DNA from: Wickerhamiella versatilis
Lineage: Eukaryota
NCBI GenBank assembly: GCA_030867685.1
Contig: JAQOWU010000008.1
Location: forward strand, 4,402,001-4,466,000
Direction of reading: 5' to 3'
DNA: 64,000 bases
Made by a program: the position numbers and the translations under genes. The notes under the pieces were generated by a model. It was not told the origin of the DNA and ran no database searches. It saw only the letters and a program-made list of their open reading frames with translations. Below, in pieces: positions 2,180 through 59,658 of this stretch (its first letter is position 1; every line of letters starts with the position of its first letter).

Positions 2180-3022
2180 ATGAAGTTCTTGCTTCCTATT
2201 CTGACCGCCATTCCTCTTGCTGTTGTCGCGAAAGAGACTATTAATCTCGATCCAGAAGCTTATTTCGACCTCTATGGAAATCCTATGCCGGTGCATGATT
2301 TCGAAACTCGTCTCGAGTATATCAGTTCATATGACAGGGAGAGGCGAATTCCAAAATGGGTGATAGAACATATGACGAGTGAGAGTGTTGGAAAGGATTC
2401 AGCAGAACGAGATGAATCACATTTTCGAGAGGATACCGCCATTCCCGAACAATTTCGGGCACGTCTCGAGGACTACTATAGGAGTGGCTATGATAGGGGA
2501 CATCACGCGGCAGCGGCAGACTGTAGTTTTAGCCAGGATGCAATGGATGAAAGTTTTTATCTGACGAACATGGCACCTCAAGTAGGGGTGGGATTCAATC
2601 GCCAATACTGGGCCTACTTTGAGGCATTTGTTCGCAATTTGACCGAGAAATATGATAGTATCCGGGTGATTACTGGCTCTCTATTCTTGCCCACGAAAGA
2701 TGACAGTGACGGAAAATGGCGAGTAACGTATGAAGTAATTGGAAATCCACCTACTGTGGCAGTGCCTACCCACTTTTATAAAATAATTATCGGGGAATCA
2801 TCAGATTCCAGCCAATCTGATGATAGTGTGGCTGTAGGTGCTTTTATCCTGCCCAACAAATATATATCTGAGGATACGAATTTGACATCTTTCTCTGCTT
2901 CTGTGAACGACATTGAAAGCAATTCTGGACTCGTGTTCTTCCCAAATCTTACGTCCAGTGATACTCGCGAGTTATGCAAGGAAGTGGAGTGTAAGGTGGA
3001 AGCATTTCATTTCGATGATTAG
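2180..3022 (+). CDS. Secreted DNA/RNA non-specific endonuclease (Nuc1/EndoG family)
   Basis: YDRGHHAAAAD active-site motif, FYLTNMAPQVG.GFNR.YW, VAVPTHFYK. First ATG is at 2180 and gives a signal-peptide-like MKFLLPILTAIPLAVVA; the ORF track start at 2156 is a TTG. Confidence 0.9.
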   Translation: MKFLLPILTAIPLAVVAKETINLDPEAYFDLYGNPMPVHDFETRLEYISSYDRERRIPKWVIEHMTSESVGKDSAERDESHFREDTAIPEQFRARLEDYYRSGYDRGHHAAAADCSFSQDAMDESFYLTNMAPQVGVGFNRQYWAYFEAFVRNLTEKYDSIRVITGSLFLPTKDDSDGKWRVTYEVIGNPPTVAVPTHFYKIIIGESSDSSQSDDSVAVGAFILPNKYISEDTNLTSFSASVNDIESNSGLVFFPNLTSSDTRELCKEVECKVEAFHFDD

Positions 3023-22257: not shown

Positions 22258-22820
22258 TGTGTGGCTTGATCAGGTGAAAGGATGTCATTTGCCTTAGATA
22301 CTTCAGCTAGTGAGTGTTGGCATGCACGCTCGCTTGACATATCTAAGAAAATCAATATATCCCTTAATGTCTCACACTAAATATGCTAAATTGTACATTA
22401 TCTGATTTGACATATATGCAACGACCCTTCACTCTATATAGGAGCGAAGGTCACTAAAACTTGATAGTATTTTGTGTCCCTAGTTTAGCATTGATCTATC
22501 GGTACATGTTTCTATCCTTTTATTGGTCGCTATAGCTGTATGATACATAGTGCAGTGGAATGGTTATCACGTTAACTGAATTGTGTCTCCTTGCTCAGCT
22601 AGTTGGACAACTCACAAGCATAGCTAGGTGACAGGAGGCAAATTGGAGAGGACCACATAGTCTCACAAGCTGAGACTGGTTAGACAATGCTTGAAGTAAG
22701 CAACCCTAGTAGAATTAATATTTATTATCTCCGACCCCCGTATGATTACTTATCATTGTGTGTGTTCTCAATTGGCCTTCACATCGCACAGTATAAGGTG
22801 TACATTTATACCAACTTTCT

Positions 22821-24608: not shown

Positions 24609-25049
24609 TTTGCTAACATAGAAAATGTTTTGCATAAAACGCACCTTCGCAACAATATCCGAGGGCATTTAGGATAGCCTGTGTGCAAGTCAGTGAGAAA
24701 GCTCGCGACATACTGGAGCATGGACCCTCTTTAATTGACTATGTAAACCAATTGCGACTTTCTTAATACTGCAGGCATCACCTGTTAGCTGACAAAATAT
24801 TGTAAACGAGACATAAAAAAGCATTCTAAAGGGGAGATATCTTATGCATACTGACATATCTACATTCTACTACTCAGCAAGTCCTAAAATTGGATCTTTT
24901 TATTTCTTTGACCTGAAGAGTGAATCTATGAATAATATAGTAGAAAACTAACTAATATGTTTTGTTTTAGGGGGACGATATGACCTAACCATGGACAAGT
25001 AACACCTAAGTTAGTTCTATAACGACTGCAATAATAACATCATACCCTA

Positions 25050-26336
25050 CTAGAGCTTAGAGATCGTCCTCCTTGCCAATTGGGCTATGTGGACTTCGTC
25101 AGGACCATCGGCAATTCGTAAAGTACGGATCGACGTGTATAATCCTGCCAAAATAGTGTCTTGGGAAACACCCTCACCACCATGTATTTGAATTGCATGA
25201 TCAATGATGCGAAGAGCCATGATTGGAATACGAATCTTGGCCATGGCAATCAGTTCAAGGGCAGCCTTGGGTCCCTTTTGGTCCATTTCATGGGCAGCAG
25301 CCAGCACCAATAGCCTGGCAGAGGTGATATCTATTCGATCCTCAGCAATCCAGGAGGCTATGACTCCTTGCTCGGAAAGCTTCTTGCCAAAGGTTACACG
25401 CGAACGAGAACGTGCGACCCCAAGCTGAAGGGCCTCCTCGGCCGCACCTAATGTCCGCATGCAATGGTGGATTCTTCCCGGACCTAAACGACCCTGCATT
25501 ATTTCGAATCCACGGCCTTCGTCCCACACAACATTCTCCAGTGGTACCTGGACATTGGTAAATCGCACCTCCATGTGACCATGTGGAGCGTCGTCATAGC
25601 CAAATACGGTCAGGGGACGGACTACCTCGACTCCAGGCGTATCCCTAGGCACTATAATGATGCTTTGTTGGCGATAAGGTGTTGCGTTGGGGCTCGTATT
25701 TCCCATAACCAACAGCAGTTTGCATCGGGGGTCGCCTGCACCGGACGACCACCATTTGGTTCCACTGATAACCCAATTCTTGCCCTCACGGGTGATACTC
25801 ATCCCTCTACCAATATTTCTTGCGTCAGAAGAGGCTATTCCTTTCTCTGTCATGCAGAATGCGGACCGAATATCTCCGGATAGAAGCGGCTCCAGCCACT
25901 CCTTCTTCTGTTTGGTATTGGCATACTTTGCCAGCACCTCCATATTTCCCGTATCAGGAGCAGAGCAATTAAATACCTCCGCCCCCATATGACTGACCCG
26001 GCCCATTTGTTCGGCCATTAAGGCGTACTCTAAATTTGTCAAGCCGGCACCCTCACGGTAGTTTTTTGGAAGGAACAAATTCCACAGTCCCTTAGCCTTG
26101 GCCTTTTCTTGAAGGGTATGGATCACTGAGGGGTATACGGTCCATCGACTACCTGTGGCTTTGGCAGCCTCATCAACCTGCTTCTCGAAAATGGGCAACG
26201 CGGGTTTCACATCCTTTTCAATGAACTCCCGAACCGCATAGATTTTTTCTCGGGCCGCAGGCGAAATCAGGGGATCCACAAGGCTAGGAATATCGAATGG
26301 TAGTGCCTTATCGCCTTGACTTGTTACTCCGGGCAT
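25050..26336 (-). CDS. Peroxisomal acyl-CoA dehydrogenase (ACAD10/ACAD11/IBR3-type)
   Basis: GLWNLFLP, FNCSAPDTGNMEVL, KWWSSGAGDPRC, DDAPHGH, QGRLGPGRIHHCMR, RIADGPDEVH; C-terminal SKL (PTS1). Confidence 0.95.
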   Translation of the reverse strand: MPGVTSQGDKALPFDIPSLVDPLISPAAREKIYAVREFIEKDVKPALPIFEKQVDEAAKATGSRWTVYPSVIHTLQEKAKAKGLWNLFLPKNYREGAGLTNLEYALMAEQMGRVSHMGAEVFNCSAPDTGNMEVLAKYANTKQKKEWLEPLLSGDIRSAFCMTEKGIASSDARNIGRGMSITREGKNWVISGTKWWSSGAGDPRCKLLLVMGNTSPNATPYRQQSIIIVPRDTPGVEVVRPLTVFGYDDAPHGHMEVRFTNVQVPLENVVWDEGRGFEIMQGRLGPGRIHHCMRTLGAAEEALQLGVARSRSRVTFGKKLSEQGVIASWIAEDRIDITSARLLVLAAAHEMDQKGPKAALELIAMAKIRIPIMALRIIDHAIQIHGGEGVSQDTILAGLYTSIRTLRIADGPDEVHIAQLARRTISKL

Positions 26337-26639
26337 CTGTGTTTGATTTAATTGCGGGGAGAGCTTCGTAATCAGCTTTTGATCTTCAACCAGACAAATT
26401 TGAATCCTAAAACCATCTGATTATCAAATGCTTAATTGGACAATTTTAGCCGCATTCCAGTTTAGGGAATCATAAGTCAGTGCGGGGGAGGGGTCGACAT
26501 GAGCCAATGCCCTGTTGGCTCGGTGGATCCTTGGGATTATGCGAATGTCTTGCGTTAGCTATCTTATTTTATGGCCTGTGGGTGAGCCACGTTTGATCAT
26601 TAATATTTTAAGTTGCCTGTAATGGTAGGTCTTATATAT

Positions 26640-27731
26640 TCAAAGCTTCACTTGAAGCTCCTTGGTAGCATTGTAGGCTAAATTCCCGAATGTGGGGTAA
26701 AGTTTTCCAAATTCTCCCGCCTGGGCGCTTGATGCTTGGCCCCGTTTTGACCGTGCAGCCACACCTTGAAGAATCACTGCGAGTCTCAGATGCGTATAAG
26801 CCATACCAAACTTCCAATCAGATCTAGGATCATAGACGCCCTGCGAGGCGTAGTATGCGAGTGCCTGGCTGAGTGTCAACGCCCCATTTTCACCTGGATG
26901 TACCTCGAGCATACCCCCCAATTGGATCCCTAGTTGGGCAACATCGAATGGCTGCAGCAAGTTGCCAACATCAGCCAGTGGGTGACCGATGGTGCAGAGT
27001 TCAAAATCAAGCAGGCCAATGATCCGGTTTTCGGTAGGATGATATACGAGATTATCAATTTTATAATCGCCATGCACTATGCAAACTGGTGTATTGCCTG
27101 GCATGTGGGCATTAAGCCAGTCAACAGTCTCCTTAAAGTGAGGAATTGCTTGGATATCCGATCCTTTGGCCTGGGCCTCGGATATCTTAGTTAGCGTTCG
27201 CATCTGACGGGGAAAATGGCTGCCTCCATTGACATTGAATATGTTTGGTGGCAGATTCAACTTCTTTACGTCGAGCGAGTGGATCGTTGCCAGCGTCTGA
27301 AGGGCCGCCTTCCAAAGGGCAGTACGGTCATCAGGCTTAGTATCGGGACTGAATTGGGGCGAGTGGAAGATACGGCCTTCCATGAATTGCATGATATAGA
27401 AAGGGGTTCCAATTAGGCTGGAATCCTCGCAAAGAAGGTAGGTCTTGGGCACAGGCACTTCGGTTCGTGCCAATGCCTGCATTATATAGTATTCCCGGTC
27501 AATTCGGTGGGAAGAGGGCGACAGAAGCTCTCCAGGAGGCTTTTTTCTCAGCACGTACTTACGCTTGTGGGCATCAATTACCAAATACGAAGGATTGGAC
27601 TGCCCATGGCCAAATTGCTTCAGAGTTAAGGGTGTAGAAAATATGTCGGGTCTCTTCTGTTCCAGATACTTTCCCAGTGACTCGACGTCGATTGGATGCC
27701 TTACCTCCCCGGCAAATGAATCCGTGCTCAT
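26640..27731 (-). CDS. APH/phosphotransferase-family kinase (ACAD10/11 N-terminal-domain-like), probably peroxisomal
   Basis: QFGHGQSNPSY, VLRKKPPG, HRIDREY, IGTPFYIM, HGDYKIDN, LDFELCTIGHPLAD, GQASS; ends in VKL (PTS1-like). First ATG at 27731. Confidence 0.92.
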   Translation of the reverse strand: MSTDSFAGEVRHPIDVESLGKYLEQKRPDIFSTPLTLKQFGHGQSNPSYLVIDAHKRKYVLRKKPPGELLSPSSHRIDREYYIMQALARTEVPVPKTYLLCEDSSLIGTPFYIMQFMEGRIFHSPQFSPDTKPDDRTALWKAALQTLATIHSLDVKKLNLPPNIFNVNGGSHFPRQMRTLTKISEAQAKGSDIQAIPHFKETVDWLNAHMPGNTPVCIVHGDYKIDNLVYHPTENRIIGLLDFELCTIGHPLADVGNLLQPFDVAQLGIQLGGMLEVHPGENGALTLSQALAYYASQGVYDPRSDWKFGMAYTHLRLAVILQGVAARSKRGQASSAQAGEFGKLYPTFGNLAYNATKELQVKL

Positions 27732-28356
27732 CACTACCAGTCTTCGTCTCGACGCTTCGTAATCCTGCGGGGTATACCCCCCTAGTTTTAACTTTAGTTA
27801 TATAATATTGACATATGTCTTACAAATGGGTCTTGCGACGGCGTTCAGGGTGACTTTCACCCTTGACTTTTGCATTTGATTCCATTTTTTTGGCTATATG
27901 CTTTTGCAATTCACTAAAAAATATTTCAAAACTCACATACATGTTCCACAGTCATAGGTAGCAATGAATGATCAACGTCGCGATGGTAGACTGAGCCGAA
28001 CCACGCTGGCCCTACAACGAATTAGCCGTTTCCAGCCTACGTCTTCATACAGCACTGCTGGTTTGTCATAGCCAACCGGGATTAATTAAGCTGTGTTGTA
28101 TCTCTTAAACCCTTATCCAGTATTTTTGGGTCCTACCAAGACCCTAGGTGAGTATCTCTTCTCTTACCGAGGTAGGATCCTAAGGGTCACAGTTTGCTCT
28201 CCCCAAACGTAAAAACAGCATCGTTATCTTCCAAAGTCTGTCTGATAACGGGAAAGTGTGGTCCAAGCATATCCTGACCAACCCTACTCACCGATTAAAG
28301 AAGTGGGGAACTATATAATACGGGTAAGGGTACCTCACCATCCTAGCAAATTCACA

Positions 28357-29217
28357 ATGTCTGTTACGGTTATTGGTAGTGGAATCATGGGGACAGGGAT
28401 TGCCTACGTCTGTGCACTCAACGGAGGCATTCCGGTGACCCTGGTAGATACCAGCGAGAAGCAGCTGGAGAACGCAAAAAAGTATACCAAAAAGACCCTG
28501 CAAGAGGCCGTTTCTCGGAAGAAAGTGACTGATACCAGCGCTGAGGAAGCATTCAATCGCATAAAATTCACTACAGATCTCGATGGAGCCGTTAGAGATG
28601 TGGATTTCGTTATCGAGGCCGTTCCTGAACGGCTAGACCTTAAAAAAAGTATTTTCCAGCGGGTGGAGAAGACTGCTAAGAAATCTACGATACTGGCCAC
28701 TAATACATCGAGTATCAGCATCACTAAAATTGCTACGGGTGTCCCTGGGGCCGAGGACCGGGTTATAGGTGTTCATTTCTTCAGCCCGGTCCCCAAGATG
28801 AGGGGTGTCGAGATAATTAAAGGTCTATTGACAAGTGAGGACACTTACACAAAGTCGGTGGAGCTCGTGAAGAAGTTCAAAAAGTCAGTGAGTACCGTTA
28901 TTGATTCTCCTGGATTTTTAGTGAACAGGATTCTCTCGCCCTACCTCTCACAGGCTATTCAACTGTATGAAAATGGCTACGCAACTGCTGAGGATATCGA
29001 TAGAATAATGGTGGATGCGACAGGAATGCCAATGGGACCCCTTCGTCTTGCTGATTTTATTGGCTTGGATACGTTGCTCAGCGTGGACTCCGTGTTGAGA
29101 GAGACCCTTGGCGAGATTGGATATCCAAAGTCGGTGCTTATGCAAAAGCTTGTTGATGCAGGACATCTTGGCATAAAGACTGGGAAGGGTTTCCATACAT
29201 ACAAGTCCAAGCTTTGA
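28357..29217 (+). CDS. Peroxisomal 3-hydroxybutyryl/3-hydroxyacyl-CoA dehydrogenase
   Basis: VIGSGIMGTGIA, EAVPE, ATNTSSISIT, HFFSPVP, PGFLVNR, PMGPLRLADFIGLD; C-terminal SKL. First ATG at 28357. Confidence 0.93.
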   Translation: MSVTVIGSGIMGTGIAYVCALNGGIPVTLVDTSEKQLENAKKYTKKTLQEAVSRKKVTDTSAEEAFNRIKFTTDLDGAVRDVDFVIEAVPERLDLKKSIFQRVEKTAKKSTILATNTSSISITKIATGVPGAEDRVIGVHFFSPVPKMRGVEIIKGLLTSEDTYTKSVELVKKFKKSVSTVIDSPGFLVNRILSPYLSQAIQLYENGYATAEDIDRIMVDATGMPMGPLRLADFIGLDTLLSVDSVLRETLGEIGYPKSVLMQKLVDAGHLGIKTGKGFHTYKSKL

Positions 29218-42284: not shown

Positions 42285-43340
42285 TTACATCTCAGGGAAA
42301 AGCTCACGTGCAGTAACGTCAAAATGTTTCATTTGAGACTTGCAGAACTCGATCACGTCTTTCTTATCAAATTTGTCTGTCTCTAGCAACCTTTGGCGTG
42401 TGATTTTACACCTATCCTCCATAACCTTTAGCCTGTAGTCTAACCAAGAAATACCGAGGTTCTGGATATCATCGTGACCCCGTGAGTTTGTTAGACATGT
42501 CATATCCTCTACAAAGACATTTCTTGGCCTCAGGCTCAATACCATAGCTATTCTTTCAGAGCAGTTGGATGCACGTAGAGCAGCATGCCTAATTTTGGAA
42601 CCCTGCAAAATTGCTATACTTCCTAATTTTGGCCCAGGAACCACATCTATGGTGCCGTCCTTTGTCATTACAGCAGTTTCTCCTCCCTGCATACCTGTAG
42701 TATCCGAAAGCATCAACACAGCTACAAACGGAACTTGGTCAAAATGCCAGTCATCCACTGGTCGATTGTCATAGTCACTGGCCTCTACATTGTTCCCTTG
42801 TGGTACGGGTAAGGTCGGAATATCGGACAGGTCGTGAATGCCCTCTTTCCCTTTGAATCCGAGTTGTATGTTGACATGCCCCACCTCAAAGTCATGTGCT
42901 GGTACGAGGTCAATGCCAACCACATCAGATATTTTTCTGAGAACACTAGGGTTGGTCAAGGCACTATATATAAAAGGTGAGCGCCTATGAGCATAGCCAC
43001 GAAGCATGTAGGGACTTCGAGGGGACGACACAGCATGATTCTCCTGAACAGGTCCAGATAAAATATCATTGCGCATCAATCGAACTGCCTCATTAGTGAA
43101 CATCCGAAACGGTGCAGCCGCAGCGAAGTCACTGATTCCGTTATTTGAATCATACCCAAAATCGCGCATCCCTTTCTTCCAAGCTGGATTGCTCATATCT
43201 AAGTGCTTTTTCTCATCAAACTTTACTTCTGTTGGTTTATATTTCCATTTTTTAATCTGAGGCGCCAGAAACTGCGCTTCTGGCTGATTGTAAAAGGTAG
43301 TATTGAGAGTCGGGTTTGGTGGCGTTACTTCAGCAGTCAT
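42285..43340 (-). CDS. Uncharacterised fungal Fe(II)/2OG dioxygenase-like protein
   Basis: DDWHFD (HxD), PFVAVLMLSD..GMQGGET, LQG..IRHAA (distal His), ERIAMVLSLRP (2OG-binding Arg). First ATG at 43340. Confidence 0.78.
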   Translation of the reverse strand: MTAEVTPPNPTLNTTFYNQPEAQFLAPQIKKWKYKPTEVKFDEKKHLDMSNPAWKKGMRDFGYDSNNGISDFAAAAPFRMFTNEAVRLMRNDILSGPVQENHAVSSPRSPYMLRGYAHRRSPFIYSALTNPSVLRKISDVVGIDLVPAHDFEVGHVNIQLGFKGKEGIHDLSDIPTLPVPQGNNVEASDYDNRPVDDWHFDQVPFVAVLMLSDTTGMQGGETAVMTKDGTIDVVPGPKLGSIAILQGSKIRHAALRASNCSERIAMVLSLRPRNVFVEDMTCLTNSRGHDDIQNLGISWLDYRLKVMEDRCKITRQRLLETDKFDKKDVIEFCKSQMKHFDVTARELFPEM

Positions 43341-43913: not shown

Positions 43914-44213
43914 CTATTCGACCTGAATCTCGATTAGTTTATGCTCCCAGGAGGATTTATCAAACGTCTGGCCATAAATAAGTTCCAGCAAGGATGAACC
44001 AGGATGTGAACCCATAACCGTATACACATAATGTCCACCAGAGCCCAACAATCCATACTGCTTTGGGTCTTTGTGATATTGCCCATCAACCAAAATTAAG
44101 TTCAGGGGTAGCCGCTTCACCATCCACGTGTAACCAGTGGTTGGATTTGCATCCAGGTTTAAATCGTACAATTCGCCTACTGAAACCGTAAGCTTTTGCG
44201 GAGTTGACACCAT
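43914..44213 (-). CDS. Chagasin-like cysteine peptidase inhibitor (family I42)
   Basis: 99 aa beta-rich protein with NPTTGYTW, GLLGSGG and Y(GQTFD) loops matching the three chagasin motifs. Confidence 0.85.
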   Translation of the reverse strand: MVSTPQKLTVSVGELYDLNLDANPTTGYTWMVKRLPLNLILVDGQYHKDPKQYGLLGSGGHYVYTVMGSHPGSSLLELIYGQTFDKSSWEHKLIEIQVE

Positions 44214-44708: not shown

Positions 44709-46034
44709 CTAACGGCCGATAAAAGTTCCAGGATAAATATCATAAGCGGCTTGCACCAATGGTGCACGGTCAGTGTCGGTATGAATCTGGCGTGTCCACA
44801 CCTCGTTCATCATCTGGCGCTGCTGAGATTGGATTTCCTTCGGCACGACGTTACGATAAGTAGTAACACTGCCATTGACAACCTCGGCAATGAGCTCAGA
44901 CACCTGAGCAGGATCGTACTGCTGATGAGGGAACGACAGTTTGGAGTAGTCAAAGAGGCTTCTATCCTGTTCCTCTGGATACCAGAATTCATGCGTTTCG
45001 AACAAACGATCATTGTAACCCGTGAGAATAGGCCCAGGATTCACAGTTGCAATTTTAACGCCGTACTCACGTAGCTCTTGGTTAAGTGCGTCTGCAAAAG
45101 CCTCAAGAGCGTGTTTACTGGATGAGTATGCACCAGCAAAAGGATCGGTCGTCAAGCCCGCAACAGAAGAGACAATTACGATAGTACCACTTCCACGTTT
45201 CACAAAGTTGCGAGCAATCTTCTGAGTGAGAAGAATAGTACCAAATACATTCACTTCAAACTGGCGACGAAGTCGATTCTCAGGGATATCAATAACAGCA
45301 CCTCCCTCACCGATACCAGCGTTATTGACCAGAATATCAACATCCCAGCTTGCCGCGCGGATACGGTCAGCCTCGTCAGTAATATCAAGTTTCCTAACTG
45401 TGATTGGCAAATCCTGTGCCCCGACCTCACGACGTAAGTCATGGACCTCGTGTGTGGTTTCGACACTAGCAATGACGTTATATCCTTGACGGGCAAGGAT
45501 GAACGATGAGTTCTTGCCAAATCCACTTCCAGCACCGGTGATCAAAACTGTAGGTTTTCCAGGGCTGCCCACATTGCTGTCAACAACTCTTACTCTAACC
45601 TCTGAAGAGCCATTCTGCTTGGCGGCCACAAGCTGATACGCATGCTTACTGTATCCAACAGGGTCATACTGGGCATTCTTGACCGCGTAGAAAGTGGAAC
45701 TACCATTAATTTGAAGGTGGTTATCTCTGACAGTAAGCGGAGATCCACCAATCGCACTGATGGCAACCTCGTTAGTCAACGGCAGTACAGTGAGGTTATA
45801 GTGAGCTCCTGTGACATTATTAGGCAAGTAGACGGTCGATCTCGAATCAGAGTATTGGAAAGTATCACCATTCGAGCCTAGGAATAGGAAGTTGAAGCTT
45901 GGAGCTTCATAAAATGATGAAACGTTCAATCCATTCGTAGCTTGGTCATTGGATTCTATGACGAGACTCACAGGGTGGTCTGCAAGTGCTGCTCCAAATA
46001 ACGACAGCAACGAGAATAGAATGGGTATCAACAT
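44709..46034 (-). CDS. Chimeric secreted protein: Rhd3/Pga29-like cell-wall domain fused to a bacterial-type SDR
   Basis: Signal peptide; about 135 aa domain (SSFYEAPSFNFLFLG...FYAVKN..YDPVGYSK); then VLITGAGSGFG, WDVDILVNNAG, YSSSK, VNPGP.LTGYND. Confidence 0.82.
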   Translation of the reverse strand: MLIPILFSLLSLFGAALADHPVSLVIESNDQATNGLNVSSFYEAPSFNFLFLGSNGDTFQYSDSRSTVYLPNNVTGAHYNLTVLPLTNEVAISAIGGSPLTVRDNHLQINGSSTFYAVKNAQYDPVGYSKHAYQLVAAKQNGSSEVRVRVVDSNVGSPGKPTVLITGAGSGFGKNSSFILARQGYNVIASVETTHEVHDLRREVGAQDLPITVRKLDITDEADRIRAASWDVDILVNNAGIGEGGAVIDIPENRLRRQFEVNVFGTILLTQKIARNFVKRGSGTIVIVSSVAGLTTDPFAGAYSSSKHALEAFADALNQELREYGVKIATVNPGPILTGYNDRLFETHEFWYPEEQDRSLFDYSKLSFPHQQYDPAQVSELIAEVVNGSVTTYRNVVPKEIQSQQRQMMNEVWTRQIHTDTDRAPLVQAAYDIYPGTFIGR

Positions 46035-47131
46035 AATTCTATCGGTAACCTTCTCAAAGATGGGCTTTTAAGCTGAGGGGTATGGGTTAGGTTCATTGCC
46101 GCATCATTTGGATGAGACCAGAATGTGGGTGTTGCGCATCGAGATTGAGACGAGTGCTGCGATTTTGACGAAATTCATCTGATAATATAAAACTATACAA
46201 TTGAATATTACTTTTGGAGACCTACTTATTACTTTTCAAGGTACTGAAGTAAGTACATAGGATTTGTGCCCGTCAACGGTCTTCATTATTTCAGGGCACG
46301 GGTTACTATCGGTCAACACGTGAATACCCCGAAATACCTCCACCAAACATTTATTTTCTGTTTCAGATGAACTATGATAGTACTATTGTATATATTGTGC
46401 AGTAGTAACCGGAAATACGCCCCAAAAGTAAATCCTCTTGGGTTGTAGAGAAGCGTGGCATCAGGTTATTATGAAATTAATGGGTTAGGGTCTGGGGTTC
46501 GAGAATTGTTCAAGAGTTTCGACTCTCCATCGGAGATTGAGGGATTTTGCGGTCGAAGATAGATAATAGAGAGCCAGAATGTGAGGATGCTTGATTTAGT
46601 ATCTCATTATAATGAGTCCCAGAGAAGTATGTGGTGTCCAATTGGTCTTCTAGCTGGTTGCCCAAATGGGTATAATTAAGGCTAGGGCTTGCGCGGAGCA
46701 ACACCGAGTATACGTAAATCACTGGAAAAGTTGTTGACCATTAACCATTATGGAGTAAGACCACAATAATAAAAATCGCTGTATCGAATATTTCTTCAAT
46801 TCTTTCAGCTAACAAAGCTCTACACTCGAGCAGCATTGGATTCTGATTCGTATGATGTAAACACCGTTCGATTTTTAAGACTTTGGTGAGCGGTCCTTGG
46901 TTGCTACGTTACTGCGTTACGGTAGCTGATCGAAGAAACCCTAAAATTAGCCCACCAGTCCCGGGAAAATCACTTTCGCACATGTTCTGACGGCTATTGC
47001 GAATAGAAGGATCTTGGCTGCAGGCACCAAAGTCACTCAGAAGGCATATAGAGGTATATAGTGAGCACCATCCCTCTTGCTTATGGCACATTGAGAATAT
47101 AAACGTTGTTCTATGATTTAAAGAAGTTTCA

Positions 47132-47701
47132 TCAGTAATGAATAATTCCATTAGATGACGAACTAATATCGCTATTACTTATTGTCCTCACATGGTACGG
47201 TAAGGAGTTAAAATTTCCTTCTGCGACCTCGATTGAATCAGGGCCCACCCCGGTAATGAAAGCCGCATGGCCAAAGTTTGTCAAATAGTGAACACCGTCG
47301 TAGTGGAAAGAAATTACCGACCCAACTGCCGGAGCGAAATCCACTGTGAGTCCTTTGGACCTGGCGTTTTGCGCCCAATCAGTGGCATCACCTAAGTTTT
47401 CGTAGTATTGCGATGATATTCCCGCATCCTTGAGAATATTAGCCACGAATCCTGTACACTGTCCCGGAGGATAGCCACCAACGGAGTTGTAATAACCAGC
47501 TGTCCCTGCACTTTGTACATTGACCTCATGAGGCTGTGCATTTGCATCAAAATGAAATAGGCCATTGGAATAGTTTATCCATGTATTCTGGTTTATTTCA
47601 CCATCCCGTCTGGTAATTTCTCCGCTATGGATATCATCAGACCGTGGTGCAGCAAGCACGTGTATTGAAAGAAAGAAGAGATGAAAGATTGATGGAAGCA
47701 T
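47132..47701 (-). CDS. Secreted CHAP-domain peptidoglycan hydrolase (amidase/endopeptidase)
   Basis: Signal peptide; YPPGQCTGFV (Cys), LGDATDWA.NA...G.TV...PAVGS, FGHAAFI (His), VAEGN (Glu/Asn). Confidence 0.88.
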   Translation of the reverse strand: MLPSIFHLFFLSIHVLAAPRSDDIHSGEITRRDGEINQNTWINYSNGLFHFDANAQPHEVNVQSAGTAGYYNSVGGYPPGQCTGFVANILKDAGISSQYYENLGDATDWAQNARSKGLTVDFAPAVGSVISFHYDGVHYLTNFGHAAFITGVGPDSIEVAEGNFNSLPYHVRTISNSDISSSSNGIIHY

Positions 47702-54039: not shown

Positions 54040-57000
54040 TTAGATAAGGAAGACAATAGCTAGTATTGCCGCTGGAATATGGTACAAGCTACTCGTCATG
54101 AGAGAGGGTGCTGCATTAGCCAGGGCGACAGAGGTCTGTGATCCAGCTGGGGATTCTACGGGGGCAGAAGACTCGAAGGGTAACAACGCACTTGTGGTGG
54201 GTGATGAAGTCTCACTGTTGCCATTAGATGCCGTTGCTGCCACAGGAGATGTTGCTGCTCCTGAAGACTTAACAGGTGTCGTTGCACTTGCTACAGGAGA
54301 AGAAGCCTCGCTATATGACTGGGTATTCGTGGCAGTATTGGAGGCTGTGGGGTATGGTTCCGGCGTGGTGGTACATCCTGGTACCGACAGAGTGTCTCCT
54401 GGTGCACCGGTGTAGGTAGTACCACATACCTCAAACGTAGTACTATACGGACAGTACGTTGTGTAGCTAGAAATAACCTGGGTCACGGTTACTGGACCGC
54501 TAGGGAAAATGGTAGAAGCAGGTAGAGTCTCTGTTACTTCTGTTCCAACACTGGAAGTAGCTGGCAGAGTTCCACTGGCAGAAGAAGCTGATCCAGTTGA
54601 AGACTCTGAAGAGATAACTGGTGAAGTGCCTGGGGCAGTCGGAATTGGTCCAGTTGAAGACTCTGAAGAGATAAATGGTGAAGTGCCCGGGGCAGTCGGA
54701 ACTGGTCCAGTTGAAGACTCCGAAGAGACCACTGGCGAGGTACCAGGTGTAGTAGAAACAGGTACGCTACACTCAGTGTTTGTCGGAGTAATAGTTGTCG
54801 TAAGAGTAGTAGGCGTTAACCTCGTGAAGTTTCCTACCACAATTGTAACTGAACTAGTGATAGTGCTGGTGATTGGAGTGCATCCGCTGGAAGACGGTGC
54901 CGACGACGGTGTCAATGACGATACAGGGCATCCAGGTCCAGAAGGAGTAATAGTAGTCACGGAGGTAGTTGGTACATAGCCTGTCGAGGTACCGCTGGTC
55001 ACTGGCACAGAGCTAGTGATGGTGCTGGTAATAGGAGTGCATCCGCTAGACGATGGTGCCGACGACGACACAGGGCACCCAGGTCCAGATGGCGTGATAG
55101 TGGTCACGGAGGTAGTTGGTACATAGCCGGTAGAAGTGCCACTAGTCACAGGAACAGAGCTAGTGATGGTGCTAGTGATTGGAGTGCATCCGCTGGATGA
55201 TGGCTTAGACGACGATGGTGCCGATGAGGACACAGGGCATCCTGGTCCAGATGGTGTGATGGTGGTCACGGAGGTAGTTGGCACATATCCTGTCGAGGTA
55301 CCGCTGGTCACTGGCACAGAGCTAGTGATGGTGCTGGTAATAGGAGTGCATCCGCTAGACGATGGTGCCAACGACGACACAGGGCACCCAGGTCCAGATG
55401 GCGTGATAGTGGTCACGGAGGTAGTTGGCACATAGCCGGTAGAAGTGCCACTGGTCACAGGAACAGAGCTGGTAATGGTGCTGGTAATAGGAGTGCACCC
55501 ACTAGACGATGGCTTCGACGAAGACACAGGGCATCCCGGTCCAGACGGGGTGATCGTGGTAACACTAGTGGTTGGCACGTAGCCTGTGGAGGTGCCACTG
55601 GTCACAGGAACGGAGTTAGTGATGGTGCTGGTGATAGGAGTGCATCCGCTGGATGATGGTGCCGACGAAGATGGCTTCGATGAAGTTACAGGGCACCCAG
55701 GTCCAGATGGCGTGATCGTGGTGACACTAGTGGTTGGCACATAGCCGGTAGAAGTGCCACTGGTCACAGGAATAGAGCTGGTGATGGTGCTGGTGATAGG
55801 AGTGCATCCACTAGAGGATGGCTTCGACGAAGACACAGGGCACCCAGGTCCAGATGGCGTGATCGTGGTAACACTAGTGGTTGGCACATAGCCTTTCGAG
55901 GTGCCACTGGTTACGGGCACAGAGCTGGTGATAGTGCTGGTGATCGGAGTGCATCCGCTGGATGATGGCTTAGACGACGATGGTGCCGATGAGGACACGG
56001 GGCATCCTGGTCCAGATGGTGTGATGGTGGTCACGGAGGTAGTTGGTACATAGCCTGTCGAGGTACCGCTGGTCACAGGAACAGAGCTGGTAATGGTGCT
56101 GGTGATAGGAGTGCATCCGCTAGACGATGGCTTAGACGACGATGGTGCCGATGAGGACACAGGGCATCCTGGTCCAGATGGTGTGATAGTGGTCACGGAG
56201 GTAGTTGGCACATAGCTTGTCGAGGTACCGCTGGTCACTGGCACAGAGCTAGTGATGGTGCTGGTAATAGGTGTGCACCCACTAGACGATGGCTTCGACG
56301 AAGACACAGGGCATCCCGGTCCAGATGGCGTGATCGTGGTAACACTAGTGGTTGATACATAACCTGTTGAGGTGCCGCTGGTCACAGGCACAGAGCTTGT
56401 GATGGTGCTGGTGATAGGAGTGCACCCACTAGACGATGGCTTCGACGAAGACACAGGGCATCCCGGTCCAGAAGGAGTAATTGTAGTCACGGAGGTAGTT
56501 GGCACATAACCCGTCGAAGTACCGCTGGTCACTGGCACAGAGCTAGTTATAGTGCTGGTGATGGGAGTGCATCCGCTGGATGATGGTGCCGACGAAGATG
56601 ACTTCGATGAAGATACAGGGCACCCAGGTCCAGATGGCGTGATCGTAGTAACACTAGTGGTTGGCACGTAGCCTGTAGAGGTGCCACTGGTTACGGGCAC
56701 AGAGCTGGTAATGGTGCTGGTAATAGGAGTGCAGCCGCTAGAGGATGGCTTCGACGACGATGGTGCCGATGAAGATACAGGGCATCCTGGTCCAGATGGA
56801 GTGATAGTGGTAACACTAGTGGTTGGCACATAGCCGGTAGAAGTGCCACTGGTCACAGGAACAGAGCTGGTGATGGTGCTGGTGATAGGAGTGCATCCAC
56901 TAGAGGATGGCTTCGACGAAGACACAGAGCACCCAGGTCCAGATGGTGTGATAGTGGTCACAGAGGTAGTTGGTATATAGCCGGTAGAAGTACCACTAGT

Positions 57001-58812
57001 CACAGGAACAGAGCTTGTGATGGTGCTAGTGATAGGAGTGCATCCGCTGGATGATGGTGCCGACGAAGATGACTTCGATGAAGATACAGGGCACCCAGGT
57101 CCAGATGGCGTGATCGTGGTGACACTAGTGGTTGGTACATAGCCTGTCGAGGTACCACTGGTTACAGGAACGGAGCTAGTGGTGGTGCTGGTGATAGGAG
57201 TGCACCCACTAGACGATGGCTTCGACGAATACACAGGGCATCCCGGTCCAGACGGGGTGATCGTGGTAACACTAGTGGTTGGCACGTAGCCTGTGGAGGT
57301 GCCACTGGTCACAGGAACGGAGTTAGTGATGGTGCTGGTGATAGGAGTGCATCCGCTAGACGATGGCTTAGACGACGATGAGGACACAGGGCATCCTGGT
57401 CCAGACGGGGTGATAGTTGTCACAGAGGTGGTTGGCACATAGCCTGTCGAGGTACCACTGGTCACGGGAACAGAGCTAGTGATAGTGCTTGTGATCGGAG
57501 TACATCCGCTAGACGATGGTGCCGACGACGACACAGGACATCCAGGTCCAGATGGCGTGATCGTAGTAACACTCGTAGTTGGTACATAGCCTGTAGAGGT
57601 GCCACTAGTTACGGTCACAGAGCTGGTGATGGTGCTGGTGATAGGAGTGCATCCGCTAGACGATGGCTTAGACGACGATGGTGCCGATGAAGACACAGAG
57701 CACCCAGGTCCAGATGGTGTAATAGTGGTCACGGAGGTAGTTGGCACAAAACCCGTTGAAGTACCGCTGGTCACTGGCACAGAGCTGGTGATGGTGCTGG
57801 TGATAGGAGTGCATGCGCTAGACGACGGCTTAGACGACGATGGTTTCGACGACGACACAGGGCATCCAGGTCCAGATGGCGTGATCGTAGTAACATTAGT
57901 GGTTGGTACATAACCTGTTGAGGTGCCGCTGGTCACAGGCACAGAGCTGGTGATGGTGCTGGTGATAGGAGAGCATCCGCTAGAAGATGGCTTAGACGAC
58001 GACAATGGCCTGGTTGTTGAGCTAGGCACAGTAGATGTGGATGAGCTGGAGCTTCTGCTCTTGGTGCTTGTTGTTTTGACCATCGTGCTTGATTTGCCCG
58101 TGGTGCTTTCGGTACTGGGTATTTCGGATGTTGTACTTGTCGGAATGGGTGTGCTTGATGTCTTGGTGATAGAAACACTAACTGATGTTCCACACTCGCT
58201 GATCCAAGGAACTGTGTAAGTGTATTCACTATCCAATGTCGCAATGGCGCTATTCGCGCTGTTAACAGCACTACTCAGACCTGCATCACATCCATTTCTG
58301 CACTTCTGAGCGGCAGAAACAGTATTTTCCAGGGCGTCCGTAATGTAGATGGTGATCTGAGATAGTGTCTTCTGAATAGAGTCTGAGTTCTCTGCTACGG
58401 CATTGCCACTTATTTCCCCAATATGTTTCGTAAATTGTTCAAGAATATTCTCGAGTTTACCGTATACCTGTTCAGAAAACTTTTTGCTGAGACAGCTCAT
58501 AGCGGACTTGTCTCCACTCGTTTTACTCAGATCGCTGGCTGCATCAAGCACTTTGTTAAGGGTATCCTCCAAAGACTGGCCATCACCTGAAAAATCAACA
58601 TTAGAAAGTACGTCGATAGCGTTATTTACCGCGTTGCGATACTTATTATCATTGAGAAGCCAGCAACCGCTTCCGTAGCAATCGTAATTACCATCTGTTC
58701 GGGTTGGAGATGGAGCATTACTGGTGCGTGTGCCACTGCGTGCTGCCGTAGTTTGGGCCAGGGCAGTGTCTAGACACAAGCCCAAAGTGAGCAATAGTCC
58801 AGAGAGCTTCAT
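54040..58812 (-). CDS. Large GPI-anchored adhesin/flocculin-like protein (about 1590 aa)
   Basis: Signal peptide MKLSGLLLTLGLCLDTALA from ATG 58812, helical N-domain, Ser/Thr tandem repeats, YTTYCP motif, hydrophobic GPI tail. Confidence 0.92.
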   Translation of the reverse strand: MKLSGLLLTLGLCLDTALAQTTAARSGTRTSNAPSPTRTDGNYDCYGSGCWLLNDNKYRNAVNNAIDVLSNVDFSGDGQSLEDTLNKVLDAASDLSKTSGDKSAMSCLSKKFSEQVYGKLENILEQFTKHIGEISGNAVAENSDSIQKTLSQITIYITDALENTVSAAQKCRNGCDAGLSSAVNSANSAIATLDSEYTYTVPWISECGTSVSVSITKTSSTPIPTSTTSEIPSTESTTGKSSTMVKTTSTKSRSSSSSTSTVPSSTTRPLSSSKPSSSGCSPITSTITSSVPVTSGTSTGYVPTTNVTTITPSGPGCPVSSSKPSSSKPSSSACTPITSTITSSVPVTSGTSTGFVPTTSVTTITPSGPGCSVSSSAPSSSKPSSSGCTPITSTITSSVTVTSGTSTGYVPTTSVTTITPSGPGCPVSSSAPSSSGCTPITSTITSSVPVTSGTSTGYVPTTSVTTITPSGPGCPVSSSSSKPSSSGCTPITSTITNSVPVTSGTSTGYVPTTSVTTITPSGPGCPVYSSKPSSSGCTPITSTTTSSVPVTSGTSTGYVPTTSVTTITPSGPGCPVSSSKSSSSAPSSSGCTPITSTITSSVPVTSGTSTGYIPTTSVTTITPSGPGCSVSSSKPSSSGCTPITSTITSSVPVTSGTSTGYVPTTSVTTITPSGPGCPVSSSAPSSSKPSSSGCTPITSTITSSVPVTSGTSTGYVPTTSVTTITPSGPGCPVSSSKSSSSAPSSSGCTPITSTITSSVPVTSGTSTGYVPTTSVTTITPSGPGCPVSSSKPSSSGCTPITSTITSSVPVTSGTSTGYVSTTSVTTITPSGPGCPVSSSKPSSSGCTPITSTITSSVPVTSGTSTSYVPTTSVTTITPSGPGCPVSSSAPSSSKPSSSGCTPITSTITSSVPVTSGTSTGYVPTTSVTTITPSGPGCPVSSSAPSSSKPSSSGCTPITSTITSSVPVTSGTSKGYVPTTSVTTITPSGPGCPVSSSKPSSSGCTPITSTITSSIPVTSGTSTGYVPTTSVTTITPSGPGCPVTSSKPSSSAPSSSGCTPITSTITNSVPVTSGTSTGYVPTTSVTTITPSGPGCPVSSSKPSSSGCTPITSTITSSVPVTSGTSTGYVPTTSVTTITPSGPGCPVSSLAPSSSGCTPITSTITSSVPVTSGTSTGYVPTTSVTTITPSGPGCPVSSSAPSSSKPSSSGCTPITSTITSSVPVTSGTSTGYVPTTSVTTITPSGPGCPVSSSAPSSSGCTPITSTITSSVPVTSGTSTGYVPTTSVTTITPSGPGCPVSSLTPSSAPSSSGCTPITSTITSSVTIVVGNFTRLTPTTLTTTITPTNTECSVPVSTTPGTSPVVSSESSTGPVPTAPGTSPFISSESSTGPIPTAPGTSPVISSESSTGSASSASGTLPATSSVGTEVTETLPASTIFPSGPVTVTQVISSYTTYCPYSTTFEVCGTTYTGAPGDTLSVPGCTTTPEPYPTASNTATNTQSYSEASSPVASATTPVKSSGAATSPVAATASNGNSETSSPTTSALLPFESSAPVESPAGSQTSVALANAAPSLMTSSLYHIPAAILAIVFLI
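54580..54750 (-). repeat. Three 57-bp repeats (PGTSPxxSSESSTGxxxxA) within the adhesin
   Basis: CCAGTTGAAGACTC recurs at 57-bp spacing. Confidence 0.85.
54770..58000 (-). repeat. Intragenic tandem array: 20 near-perfect plus 1 degenerate units, mostly 147 or 162 bp
   Basis: Core CTPITSTITSSVPVTSGTSTGYVPTTSVTTITPSGPGC with one or two SSS(K/A)P spacers; counted in both protein and DNA. Confidence 0.95.
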
Positions 58813-59658
58813 GGCTGATCGTGGTGCTAGTCGCCTTGTCCTGTGTTTATAGTTTGGCGTGGGTTTAAGAGTCTTGAAGAGGGCCGTGCGCAGGGTAAGG
58901 CGAATAAGATAATGCATTTCACTGCATATGACAAAACTCGAGCTTCGCGAAACCAGGGAAATCCCGTGACACAAGAAACAAACTTTTTCTGCGAAATGGT
59001 AAGTTTTCGATTTTAGCAGCGGCTGGCATATTTTAGAAAACGTAATTATTCGAGGGGACTCTATGGTTGAGCAACCCGGGAATATGTGGCTTAATCGGGC
59101 AAGGTATTGCTTAAGCACTCTGGTGCATAGCGTTACCCTGCATGTAAAATAGCATGGGCAGAATGCGGCATTAAGAAATGAATTTGAGAAGTTTCTTTTT
59201 CTTACAATAAGCATTTATACTGTCAAATCCTAAATATCGATAACCATTATGATGATAGTCTCCCGTCAAAGCACTCTAACCGAATATGGTTCCTGAGGTG
59301 CCTGTTCGTCATATGAGTAATCGGAAAATCCCGCTGCAATGCACGGTCTTAGACGACGCCCGCTAATCGGTAACTTCCGCATCGTGGTGTTACATGTGAC
59401 ACTTAATGCTTGCGCCAGTACTATTCATTAAGCTTACAACTGTAGCGATGAAATTCAATGCTAGCGTTTAGAATTATTCATGTCTCGCCTTTTGGTTTAT
59501 GTGCCTGCAGTCTCACGGCGTTTAACCTCGATAATTAGCTAGATTGTGTTATGTTATGACAAACCAGCTATTTGCATCTTGCGCTTCACCCTAACCTTGG
59601 TTAGGCATTTACTTAATTGTAGTAAACACCTGCCAGTCTGCCAGCTGGTAGACACACG

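What the first reader, a model, noticed from the sequence alone, without database searches (positions are those of the whole stretch)
44709..46034. Inter-kingdom chimera: yeast cell-wall domain fused in frame to a bacterial SDR
Seen: one uninterrupted 441 aa ORF made of a signal peptide, a ~135 aa beta-rich domain, a short linker (DSNVGSPGKP, about 45555-45585) and a full SDR with an intact YxxxK. Known from memory: the N-domain resembles Candida Rhd3/Pga29-31 wall proteins (HEGAAINYLFLG...DPYNYS), and the SDR resembles a bacterial family with WDVDVLLNNAG and VNPGPYLTGFND. Inference: an HGT gene captured a native promoter and secretion module, replacing the Ser/Thr-GPI tail. An exported NAD(P)-dependent enzyme is puzzling; it may act in the ER lumen or carry a tightly bound cofactor.
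Basis: partly seen in the sequence, partly recalled or inferred. Interest (0 to 1): 0.72.

Follow-up and report, generated by a model that had tools for sequence, protein, structure and literature searches.

The report
Yeast wall-protein module fused to bacterial dehydrogenase
A budding-yeast-type genome carries one real, conserved gene in which the secretion signal and beta-trefoil head of a yeast cell-wall protein are joined in frame to a complete short-chain dehydrogenase of bacterial descent, showing how a transferred bacterial enzyme can be re-routed to the yeast secretory pathway.

Summary
Window 44709..46034 (minus strand) is one 441-aa ORF: signal-peptide-like start, a ~133-aa beta domain, a 10-aa linker, then a full classical SDR.

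- **SDR half.** It passes the bacterial NCBIfam equivalog PRK09291. It is 54-65% identical to named bacterial proteins. In a tree it sits inside bacterial sequences.
- **N half.** It has no Pfam hit itself. A profile of it finds 92 unfused yeast proteins after 2 false hits are removed. One is annotated RHD3, and one cluster holds a PGA30. Many are weak DUF7907 matches, and 52 of the 91 screened have GPI-like tails. It models confidently as a beta-trefoil.
- **The fusion is real.** At least three other sequence clusters carry the same architecture (66-72% identity). No Met lies near the junction. Contigs from four public runs bridge it.
- **Signs of secretory adaptation.** Two N-glycosylation sequons inside the SDR are present in 5 of 5 fused forms but in 0 and 2 of 116 unfused forms.
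- **A second chimera.** The same N-module is fused elsewhere to a bacterial Tat-type PLP aminotransferase.
- **Open points.** Export, glycosylation, activity, substrate and cofactor supply are inferred, not shown. One run carries a nonsense allele.

This is a new variant of a known kind (HGT chimera).

The parts
46035..47131 (-). Upstream intergenic region (about 1.1 kb) between this ORF and the next ORF (CHAP-domain gene); presumed promoter and 5' UTR
   Evidence: No ORF of 150 aa or more lies here; the sequence was read. One contig of run X16 ends at 46239, 205 nt upstream of the ATG. Promoter function is inferred.
45981..46034 (-). Residues 1-18: signal-peptide-like N-terminus (hydrophobic core, A-L-A before D19)
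   Evidence: The A-L-A-D boundary is invariant in the three full-length fused N-domains aligned. It aligns with the N-termini of unfused homologues, 52 of 91 of which also end in a GPI-like hydrophobic tail. No signal-peptide predictor was available, and cleavage is inferred.
45582..45980 (-). Residues 19-151: Rhd3/Pga30-like (DUF7907-related) wall-protein domain, predicted beta-trefoil, with five N-x-S/T sequons (N37, N73, N80, N110, N141)
45552..45581 (-). Residues 152-161: linker and fusion junction. The SDR begins at the position of residue 4 or 5 of the bacterial proteins.
   Evidence: Alignment A1. The linker differs in length and sequence among fused orthologues. No Met lies near it in P0001, P0003 or P0004. 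Contigs of runs X16, X18, X8 and X13 bridge it.
44712..45551 (-). Residues 162-441: complete classical SDR of the bacterial PRK09291 type. It has the cofactor motif T166-G173, the acidic residue E192 after beta-2, NNAG, and the tetrad N262/S289/Y303/K307.
   Evidence: PF00106 scores 146 bits against a cut-off of 26.6. NF006776 scores 336 bits against a cut-off of 265. Invariant columns are, coordinates, and the tree.
45504..45512 (-). Sequon N175-S-S inside the SDR, directly after the glycine-rich loop
   Evidence: Present in 5 of 5 fused proteins and 0 of 116 unfused homologues.
44868..44876 (-). Sequon N387-G-S inside the SDR
   Evidence: Present in 5 of 5 fused proteins and 2 of 116 unfused homologues.
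44709..44711 (-). Stop codon. There is no HDEL/KDEL-type C-terminus and no GPI-like tail.
   Evidence: The downstream 44214-44711 is closed in all three frames and shows no Ser/Thr-rich or hydrophobic-tail remnant.

Best explanation
This is a genuine chimeric gene made after horizontal gene transfer. A bacterial stand-alone cytoplasmic SDR of the PRK09291 type entered an ancestor of a small group of budding-yeast-type fungi. It became joined in frame, at its very N-terminus, behind the signal peptide and beta-trefoil head of a native Rhd3/Pga30-like (DUF7907-related) cell-wall protein gene.

Shown:
- both homologies;
- the bacterial placement of the SDR;
- the continuity of the ORF and the conservation of the fusion;
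- the lack of any internal AUG that could give a free SDR;
- intact cofactor and catalytic motifs;
- full compositional amelioration.

Inferred:
- The product enters the ER through the signal peptide and is N-glycosylated, including at two sequons that arose inside the SDR after fusion.
- Having neither a GPI signal nor an ER-retention motif, it is delivered to the periplasmic space, the wall or the medium. There the trefoil head may help hold or stabilise it.
- The SDR probably still acts as an NAD(H)-type carbonyl/alcohol oxidoreductase on an unknown small substrate.

How the cofactor is supplied outside the cytosol is unexplained.
For: **Fusion is real.**
- One 441-aa ORF.
- Full-length relatives have the same architecture: P0002 (98%), P0003 (72%) and P0004 (69%). 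P0005 (333 aa) and the fragment P0128 also span the junction.
- The only Met residues in P0001 are at positions 1, 408 and 409.
- Contigs of 4 of 4 laid runs from four studies bridge 45552-45581 with no joints.

**SDR is bacterial.**
- NF006776 scores 336 bits against a cut-off of 265.
- Every named hit among the 120 listed is bacterial, at 54-65% identity.
- In a 70-row tree the four fused rows form one clade (SH-aLRT 100). That clade is sister to the unfused P0006 (92) and lies inside a clade with Enterovirga, Acinetobacter and Erwiniaceae, which is nested among other bacterial phyla.
- Locus L001 (67% identity) has bacterial neighbours.

**N half is a yeast wall module.**
- 94 profile hits, of which 92 remain after 2 bacterial repeat proteins are removed.
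- Source names for hits include RHD3 and PGA30, from Candida, Lipomyces, Priceomyces and Scheffersomyces.
- 61 of 93 hits scanned match PF25484 DUF7907: 35 of 48 at E<=0.01 and 26 of 45 at E<=0.001.
- 52 of 91 have GPI-like ends.

**Selection.**
- SDR identity among fused orthologues is 74-82%, against 51-61% for the N-domain.
- Catalytic columns are invariant.
- Among listed differences shared by runs X16 and X18, 12 are synonymous and 2 are not.

**Secretory adaptation.**
- Sequons N175 and N387 occur in 5 of 5 fused forms but in 0 and 2 of 116 unfused forms.
- Three of the 11 fused-specific substitutions create these sequons.

**Host-like composition.** GC is 0.48 and GC3 0.44, within the range of neighbouring genes. 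CTG encodes the invariant Leu235.
Against: - Export, glycosylation, wall retention and enzyme activity were not measured.
- No signal-peptide predictor was run.
- The bacterial relatives are cytoplasmic-type NAD(P) enzymes. No source of cofactor is known in the yeast wall or medium.
- The most conserved motif of the wall-protein family (H-E-G-A-G: 89, 91, 97, 90 and 72% in 88 unfused homologues) is degenerate in the fused forms (Y-E-A/G-P-S/A). A wall-binding role of the head is therefore doubtful.
- The single contig of run X16 carries a nonsense change at codon 319 (45080 G>A). Its private listed changes are 8 non-synonymous against 5 synonymous. Only 27 differences listed inside the ORF were examined, and 63 further differences were not shown.
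- P0126 and P0128 look like broken pieces of an orthologue, and P0005 starts inside the N-domain. These may be decay or assembly and gene-calling errors.
- The sequon counts rest on one clade, so they represent two evolutionary events, not five.
- The source of the sister sequence P0006 is unknown, so the order of transfer and fusion is open.
- The N-domain itself fails Pfam DUF7907.
Confidence: 0.55

Rival explanations
1. The chimera is real, but the SDR does not work as an extracellular redox enzyme. It might act inside a secretory or vacuolar compartment. It might serve a non-catalytic or redox-neutral role with a permanently bound cofactor. Or it might be a dispensable gene drifting towards loss in some strains.
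For: - No cofactor supply is known outside the cytosol (established knowledge of SDRs).
- A nonsense allele at codon 319 and an excess of private non-synonymous changes occur in run X16.
- Broken-looking pieces exist in another lineage: P0126, P0128 and the internal start of P0005.
- The stem branch to the fused clade is long (0.23 changes per column).
- The H-E-G-A-G motif of the head is degenerate.
Against: - The catalytic tetrad and cofactor motifs are invariant in all fused forms.
- The SDR half is more conserved than the N half (74-82% against 51-61%).
- Changes shared by two runs split 12 synonymous to 2 non-synonymous.
- There is no HDEL/KDEL end.
Confidence: 0.3
2. The SDR reaches the cytosol after all. 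This could happen through an inefficient signal peptide, non-AUG internal initiation or an internal transcription start, or proteolytic release. The N half would then be only a leader.
For: - P0005 is called from a Met inside the N-domain and keeps the whole SDR.
- P0005 and P0128 have a dibasic K-R just before the SDR.
- The SDR's relatives are cytoplasmic.
Against: - There is no Met near the junction in P0001, P0003 or P0004.
- The dibasic site is absent from P0001, P0003 and P0004.
- The N-domain is kept as an intact, confidently folding trefoil.
- Two conserved new sequons in the SDR make sense only in the secretory pathway.
Confidence: 0.08
3. The SDR half is an old fungal gene inherited vertically and lost elsewhere, not a transfer from bacteria.
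For: The tree is unrooted in principle.
Against: - All named hits among the 120 listed are bacterial. No named eukaryotic protein reaches the lowest listed score of 332 bits.
- The protein passes a bacterial equivalog model.
- The fused clade lies several supported nodes deep inside bacterial groups, and distant bacterial paralogues root the tree away from it.
Confidence: 0.03
4. Artefact: a mis-assembly joining yeast and bacterial DNA, or two adjacent genes read as one.
For: The holders of this DNA are mostly metagenomes, in which bacteria and yeasts are mixed.
Against: - Contigs of four runs from four studies bridge the junction, two of them with no differences.
- Orthologues at 66-72% identity have the same junction.
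- GC, GC3 and codon use of the SDR half match the neighbouring yeast genes.
- The window around it is fungal: Zn2Cys6 factors, Fungal_trans and Mannosyl_trans3.
Confidence: 0.02

Closest known systems
Bacterial PRK09291-type SDR family oxidoreductases (NCBIfam NF006776), e.g. those of Rosenbergiella, Tatumella, Acinetobacter, Enterovirga, Acetobacter and Gluconobacter
   Same: The SDR half aligns end to end, 54-65% identical, with all motifs, and scores above the curated cut-off.
   Different: The bacterial proteins are 279-302 aa, stand alone and have no signal sequence. Here the first 3-4 residues are replaced by 161 residues of yeast origin, and two N-glycosylation sequons have been added. 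No member has a solved structure; the best PDB match is 3m1a at E 1.8e-22. I found no assigned substrate. Bacterial gene neighbourhoods vary.
Rhd3/Pga29, Pga30, Pga31-type yeast wall proteins and Pfam DUF7907 (PhiA-related)
   Same: A signal peptide followed by a domain of the same size. The motif N-G-S..F-Y-A-x-K-N..D-P-x-x-Y-S is shared. Profile matches reach 6e-36.
   Different: There is no Ser/Thr-rich stalk or GPI signal. The H-E-G-A-G motif is lost. The domain itself scores nothing against PF25484. The link to PhiA comes only from language-model neighbours and the Pfam family name.
HGT chimeras and post-transfer fusions. In arthropods: 104 origination events (PMC13389597, abstract read). 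In early-diverging fungi: bacterial glycoside hydrolases fused to fungal CBM_10 (PMC11291939, passages read).
   Same: An interval of bacterial descent and an interval of host descent lie in one reading frame, and the fusion is conserved among relatives.
   Different: Here the host part is a secretion signal plus a wall-protein trefoil. The cargo is a cytoplasmic-type, cofactor-dependent oxidoreductase in a budding-yeast-type genome. None of the titles listed by my searches describes such a case.
MoErs1 (PDB 7vs2), secreted fungal effector; Kunitz-type inhibitors; ricin-B-type lectins
   Different: Sequence identity is 4-19%. Foldseek gave no match at E<=1e-3. A shared fold does not show a shared function.

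Membership tests
Classical SDR (Pfam PF00106) / NCBIfam NF006776 PRK09291 | Profile score above the curated cut-off | tested here: met
   PF00106 scores 146.4 bits against 26.6. NF006776 scores 336 bits against 265.
Classical SDR (Pfam PF00106) / NCBIfam NF006776 PRK09291 | Cofactor motif TGxxxGxG and NNAG | tested here: met
   T166, G167, G171, G173 and N236-N237-A-G are invariant in alignment A1.
Classical SDR (Pfam PF00106) / NCBIfam NF006776 PRK09291 | Catalytic tetrad Asn-Ser-Tyr-Lys (YxxxK) | tested here: met
   N262, S289, Y303 and K307 are invariant in A1.
Classical SDR (Pfam PF00106) / NCBIfam NF006776 PRK09291 | NAD(P)-dependent oxidoreductase activity | not testable with these tools
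   E192 after beta-2 suggests NAD(H), by the usual SDR rule. That rule is recalled, not tested.
Rhd3/Pga30-like wall proteins / Pfam PF25484 DUF7907 | Pfam model score above the gathering cut-off (27 bits) | tested here: not met
   No Pfam family at E<=10 for residues 1-160. Of its profile hits, 13 of 48 pass the cut-off and 35 of 48 match at E<=0.01.
Rhd3/Pga30-like wall proteins / Pfam PF25484 DUF7907 | Profile-level homology to named members | tested here: met
   The profile from 87 unfused homologues only scores 104 bits, E 2.7e-34, on residues 20-151. Hits include an annotated RHD3 (P0145) and the cluster holding PGA30.
Rhd3/Pga30-like wall proteins / Pfam PF25484 DUF7907 | Conserved H-E-G-A-G motif | tested here: not met
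   The window has Y-E-A-P-S. In 88 unfused homologues the motif residues occur at 89, 91, 97, 90 and 72%.
Rhd3/Pga30-like wall proteins / Pfam PF25484 DUF7907 | Second motif N-G-S..F-Y-A-x-K-N..D-P-x-x-Y-S | tested here: met
   Present, with one extra residue before D-P.
Rhd3/Pga30-like wall proteins / Pfam PF25484 DUF7907 | N-terminal signal peptide | tested here: inconclusive
   A hydrophobic core and an A-L-A/D boundary are conserved. No predictor was available.
Rhd3/Pga30-like wall proteins / Pfam PF25484 DUF7907 | Ser/Thr-rich stalk and C-terminal GPI signal | tested here: not met
   The SDR occupies that place. 52 of 91 homologues have GPI-like ends, and 33 are short forms without them.
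Beta-trefoil fold | Twelve-strand trefoil architecture matching solved trefoils | tested here: met
HGT chimera | One interval of foreign descent and one of host descent | tested here: met
   Tree of the SDR half and tree of the N half.
HGT chimera | A single contiguous transcript or protein | tested here: inconclusive
   The ORF is continuous and contigs bridge the junction. No run is on record as RNA.

The most novel reading that the evidence does not exclude
This group of yeasts uses the signal peptide plus Rhd3/Pga30-like beta-trefoil head as a reusable export or display carrier for enzymes taken from bacteria. At least two unrelated cargos are joined to it:
- the cytoplasmic-type NAD-dependent SDR described here;
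- in P0133, a PLP aminotransferase whose nearest relatives are bacterial and carry twin-arginine export signals. The yeast module replaces those signals.

In both chimeras the family's H-E-G-A-G motif has decayed. That would fit a head relieved of its original wall function and kept as a folding, secretion or retention scaffold. If so, cofactor-dependent bacterial chemistry is being carried out at the yeast cell surface in food-fermentation habitats.
Probability: 0.25. Interest if true: 0.8.

Novelty: new variant of a known kind. Interest (0 to 1): 0.58.

Why it matters
- It is a clean, checkable example of how a eukaryote domesticates a bacterial gene. The gene did not simply gain a promoter; it was grafted onto a native secretory and wall-protein module, with later gain of glycosylation sites.
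- It poses a concrete biochemical puzzle: how can an NAD(H)-type SDR be useful once routed out of the cytosol?
- It hints that the same yeast module has been used more than once as a carrier for bacterial enzymes.
- The DNA turns up mainly in food and food-fermentation metagenomes. A surface oxidoreductase could therefore bear on carbonyl/alcohol chemistry there. That last point is speculation.

Tried and rejected
**Searches that gave nothing or too little**
- Whole genome of the window: none is held, so paralogues and unfused copies in the same genome could not be sought.
- Word-index search for short unfused N-domain relatives found nothing. The exhaustive HMMER profile search was needed.
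- The first AlphaFold run, with 3 sequences, failed (pLDDT 36.6).
- The metagenome scan gave 80 loci. None was a fused form, so synteny and dN/dS of orthologues could not be done.

**Origin of the sister sequence P0006**
- It is 69% identical to the Rosenbergiella genome copy and 58% to a Gluconobacter copy.
- Nothing closer was found in 400 genomes sampled from that class; 1 of 400 matched at E<=1e-110, and that was the same genome.
- Its source stays unknown.

**Other dead ends**
- Bacterial gene neighbourhoods in 8 loci showed no conserved partner. Only the two Erwiniaceae-type loci share a zinc ADH and a GNAT.
- No RNA holder is listed. Runs X16 and X18 are only guessed to be RNA, so their transcript-sized contigs (1779 and 1292 nt) are not counted as evidence of expression.
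- No remnant of a Ser/Thr/GPI tail lies downstream, and there is no second copy of the N-domain in the window.
- In the N-domain tree, P0133 could not be placed with support. Whether the two chimeras share a fused ancestor is therefore open.
- P0158 and P0202 are bacterial repeat proteins and were dropped as false profile hits.

**Literature**
- Full-text searches listed no yeast SDR/wall-protein chimera among the 15, 15 and 12 titles shown. That does not show it is unpublished.
- The HGT gene table of PMC11708051 is a supplement I could not open. It may list this gene.
- One dairy-yeast genome paper was searched on a guess. It has 0 occurrences of 'bacterial origin', 'fusion' or 'short-chain'. 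This says nothing, because the species of the window is not known.

**Code.** A CUG-Ser code was rejected: CTG makes up 16% of Leu codons in the window's genes and sits at the invariant Leu235.
Full report
**Observation**

Window 44709..46034 holds one uninterrupted 441-aa ORF on the minus strand. Its layout:

| Residues | Coordinates | Part |
|---|---|---|
| 1-18 | 45981-46034 | Signal-peptide-like start ending A-L-A before D19 |
| 19-151 | 45582-45980 | Beta-rich domain |
| 152-161 | 45552-45581 | Short linker |
| 162-441 | 44712-45551 | Complete classical SDR |

- Pfam adh_short matches 162-347 at E 9.4e-43. The first 160 residues match no Pfam family, even at E<=10.
- TGxxxGxG, NNAG and the tetrad N262/S289/Y303/K307 are present. 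They are invariant in an alignment with bacterial homologues.
- The surrounding window is fungal and yeast-like. It holds Zn2Cys6 and Fungal_trans factors, a Mannosyl_trans3 enzyme, an HO/VDE-like endonuclease and long intron-free ORFs.
- CTG is a normal Leu codon: 16% of Leu codons, and it sits at the invariant Leu235.

**The SDR half is of bacterial descent**

- It scores 336 bits against the NCBIfam equivalog NF006776 (PRK09291), whose cut-off is 265.
- Among the 120 best database proteins listed, the only full-length matches are P0002 (98%), P0003 (72%) and P0004 (69%).
- All other hits are unfused proteins of 262-333 aa. Every one that carries a name is bacterial, at 54-65% identity. The genera include Enterovirga, Paramixta, Rosenbergiella, Tatumella, Acinetobacter, Acetobacter, Gluconobacter, Pseudomonas and Streptomyces.
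- I built a quick IQ-TREE of 70 rows. It comprised 4 fused rows (P0002 left out as near-identical), 45 of the 116 unfused hits and 21 of the 79 genome loci; one further locus, L089, was dropped as too short.
- In that tree the fused proteins form one clade (SH-aLRT 100), sister to the unfused, unnamed P0006 (92). They lie inside a clade with Enterovirga, Acinetobacter and Erwiniaceae. That clade is nested among Acetobacteraceae, Actinomycetota and others, with distant bacterial paralogues at the midpoint root.
- The closest metagenome locus (L001, 67%) has bacterial neighbours.
- GC (0.48) and GC3 (0.44) of the SDR half match the neighbouring yeast genes, so the transfer is not recent.
- The source of P0006 could not be found. 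It is therefore open whether the transfer preceded the fusion.

**The N half is a yeast wall-protein module**

- A word-index search found nothing.
- An exhaustive HMMER search with a profile of three fused N-domains found 94 proteins at E<=1e-3, 23 of them at E<=1e-10. Two are bacterial repeat proteins and were discarded.
- The rest start with a signal peptide and the same domain.
  - Of the 91 screened for their C-terminal ends (all but the fused P0003), 52 continue into a Ser/Thr-rich stretch and a hydrophobic GPI-like end.
  - 33 are short forms.
  - 6 have other ends.
- Source names include 'Cell wall protein RHD3' (Candida maltosa; P0145, E 1.8e-10) and 'Cell wall protein PGA30' (C. parapsilosis; in the cluster of P0160). 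There are also uncharacterised proteins of Lipomyces, Priceomyces and Scheffersomyces.
- 61 of the 93 hits scanned match Pfam DUF7907, and 13 of the first 48 exceed the gathering score. This agrees with the language-model lead.
- A profile built only from 87 unfused homologues scores window residues 20-151 at 104 bits. It does not hit the bacterial SDRs.
- With the 93-row alignment, AlphaFold2 gives a confident all-beta model (pLDDT 93, pTM 0.84).
- The family's strongest motif, H-E-G-A-G, is degenerate in the fused forms. The second motif, around D-P, is kept.
- In a weakly resolved N-domain tree, the fused heads group with fragments of fused genes (99). They lie inside a 12-row clade (94) with the unfused P0122, P0123, P0124, P0127 and P0131.

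**The fusion is one gene**

- The bacterial proteins begin three or four residues before the T-V-L-I-T-G strand, and the yeast part ends exactly there.
- None of P0001, P0003 or P0004 has a Met near the junction, so a free SDR cannot be made from an AUG.
- The linker varies among orthologues. A dibasic site occurs only in P0005 and P0128.
- Contigs of all four laid runs, from four studies, bridge the junction without joints. Two of them have no differences. Seven of the holders may be the source of the window and were not used.

**Signs of function and of adaptation**

- Between fused orthologues the SDR half is 74-82% identical and the N half 51-61%.
- Of the 27 differences listed inside the ORF, those shared by runs X16 and X18 split 12 synonymous to 2 non-synonymous.
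- Two N-x-S/T sequons inside the SDR (N175, N387) occur in 5 of 5 fused proteins, against 0 and 2 of 116 unfused ones. They account for 3 of the 11 fused-specific substitutions. The fused forms are one clade, so this counts as two events.

**Evidence against a needed function**

- The X16 contig has a stop at codon 319, and its private changes are 8 non-synonymous against 5 synonymous.
- P0126, P0128 and P0005 look like pieces of a broken or mis-called orthologue.

**Mechanism**

- Shown: a conserved HGT chimera with intact enzyme motifs that can only be translated behind a secretory leader.
- Inferred: ER entry, N-glycosylation, and delivery to the periplasmic space, wall or medium, because there is no GPI signal and no HDEL. 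There the product probably acts as an NAD(H)-type oxidoreductase on an unknown substrate. E192 after beta-2 suggests NAD by the usual SDR rule, which is recalled.
- Cofactor supply is unexplained.
- No solved structure or conserved bacterial gene neighbourhood points to a substrate.

**A second chimera**

- P0133 (507 aa, and two close variants) has the same head fused to a PLP aminotransferase (PF00155, E 1e-42).
- It scores 431.5 bits against NCBIfam PRK09105 (cut-off 444) and 392 bits against the pyoverdine transaminase PtaA model (cut-off 500).
- Its nearest relatives are bacterial: Carnimonas 54%, Halotalea 52%, then Acidobacteriota, Frateuria and Pseudomonas at 43-50%.
- The four bacterial relatives I read begin with twin-arginine signals (R-R-x-F-L-R), which the yeast module replaces.
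- Its H-E-G-A-G motif is also lost.

**Comparison with what is known**

- Post-transfer fusion of bacterial genes with host domains is described in early-diverging fungi (PMC11291939, passages) and in arthropods (PMC13389597, abstract).
- SDRs are the top annotated class among prokaryote-to-fungus transfers (PMC11708051, one passage).
- This case is therefore a new variant of a known kind. The new elements are the wall-protein trefoil carrier, the cytoplasmic-type cofactor-dependent cargo, and the possible re-use of the carrier.

Noticed in passing
window 47132..47701 (-): The next gene upstream is a 189-aa ORF with a signal-peptide-like start and a CHAP amidase/peptidase domain (Pfam E 4.4e-14). 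It gives weak matches to bacterial peptidoglycan-hydrolase models. Its nearest language-model clusters are all bacterial (score 0.87, a lead only). It may be another bacterial-type gene adapted for secretion.
   Followed up: partly
window 43914..44213 (-): The next gene downstream is a 99-aa chagasin-family (I42) cysteine-peptidase inhibitor (Pfam E 2.2e-16) without a signal peptide. From memory, this family is mostly bacterial, archaeal or protist. Its origin was not tested.
   Followed up: no
protein P0133 (not in the window); variants P0220, P0221: The same wall-protein head is fused to a bacterial Tat-type PLP aminotransferase. The nearest relatives are Carnimonas and Halotalea (52-54%), and they begin with twin-arginine signals.
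   Followed up: partly
window 45080 (codon 319 of the ORF), run X16: The single contig of one public run has G>A here, turning CAA into TAA. It also shows an excess of private non-synonymous changes. This is a nonsense allele in one strain or relative.
   Followed up: partly
proteins P0126, P0128, P0005: Three database proteins look like pieces of one fused orthologue. P0126 is an N-terminal piece with a garbled end. P0128 is a middle piece that crosses the junction and then goes out of frame. P0005 is a 333-aa form starting at a Met inside the trefoil. They could reflect decay or assembly and gene-calling errors.
   Followed up: partly
window 15037..17124 (-): A 695-aa ORF with Hom_end and Hint domains: an HO/VDE-like homing-endonuclease relative.
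   Followed up: no
window 21346..29217: A cluster of three 3-hydroxyacyl-CoA dehydrogenase-type genes, an acyl-CoA dehydrogenase and an APH-type phosphotransferase: a beta-oxidation-like gene group.
   Followed up: no
window 54040..59214 (-): A 1724-aa ORF with no Pfam family at E<=1e-5. ORFs 5182..7074, 17938..18972 and 42285..43340 are also unassigned.
   Followed up: no
window 922..3022 (+): A second, unrelated SDR (adh_short_C2, E 1.3e-62) lies next to a DNA/RNA non-specific endonuclease gene (E 3.5e-59).
   Followed up: no
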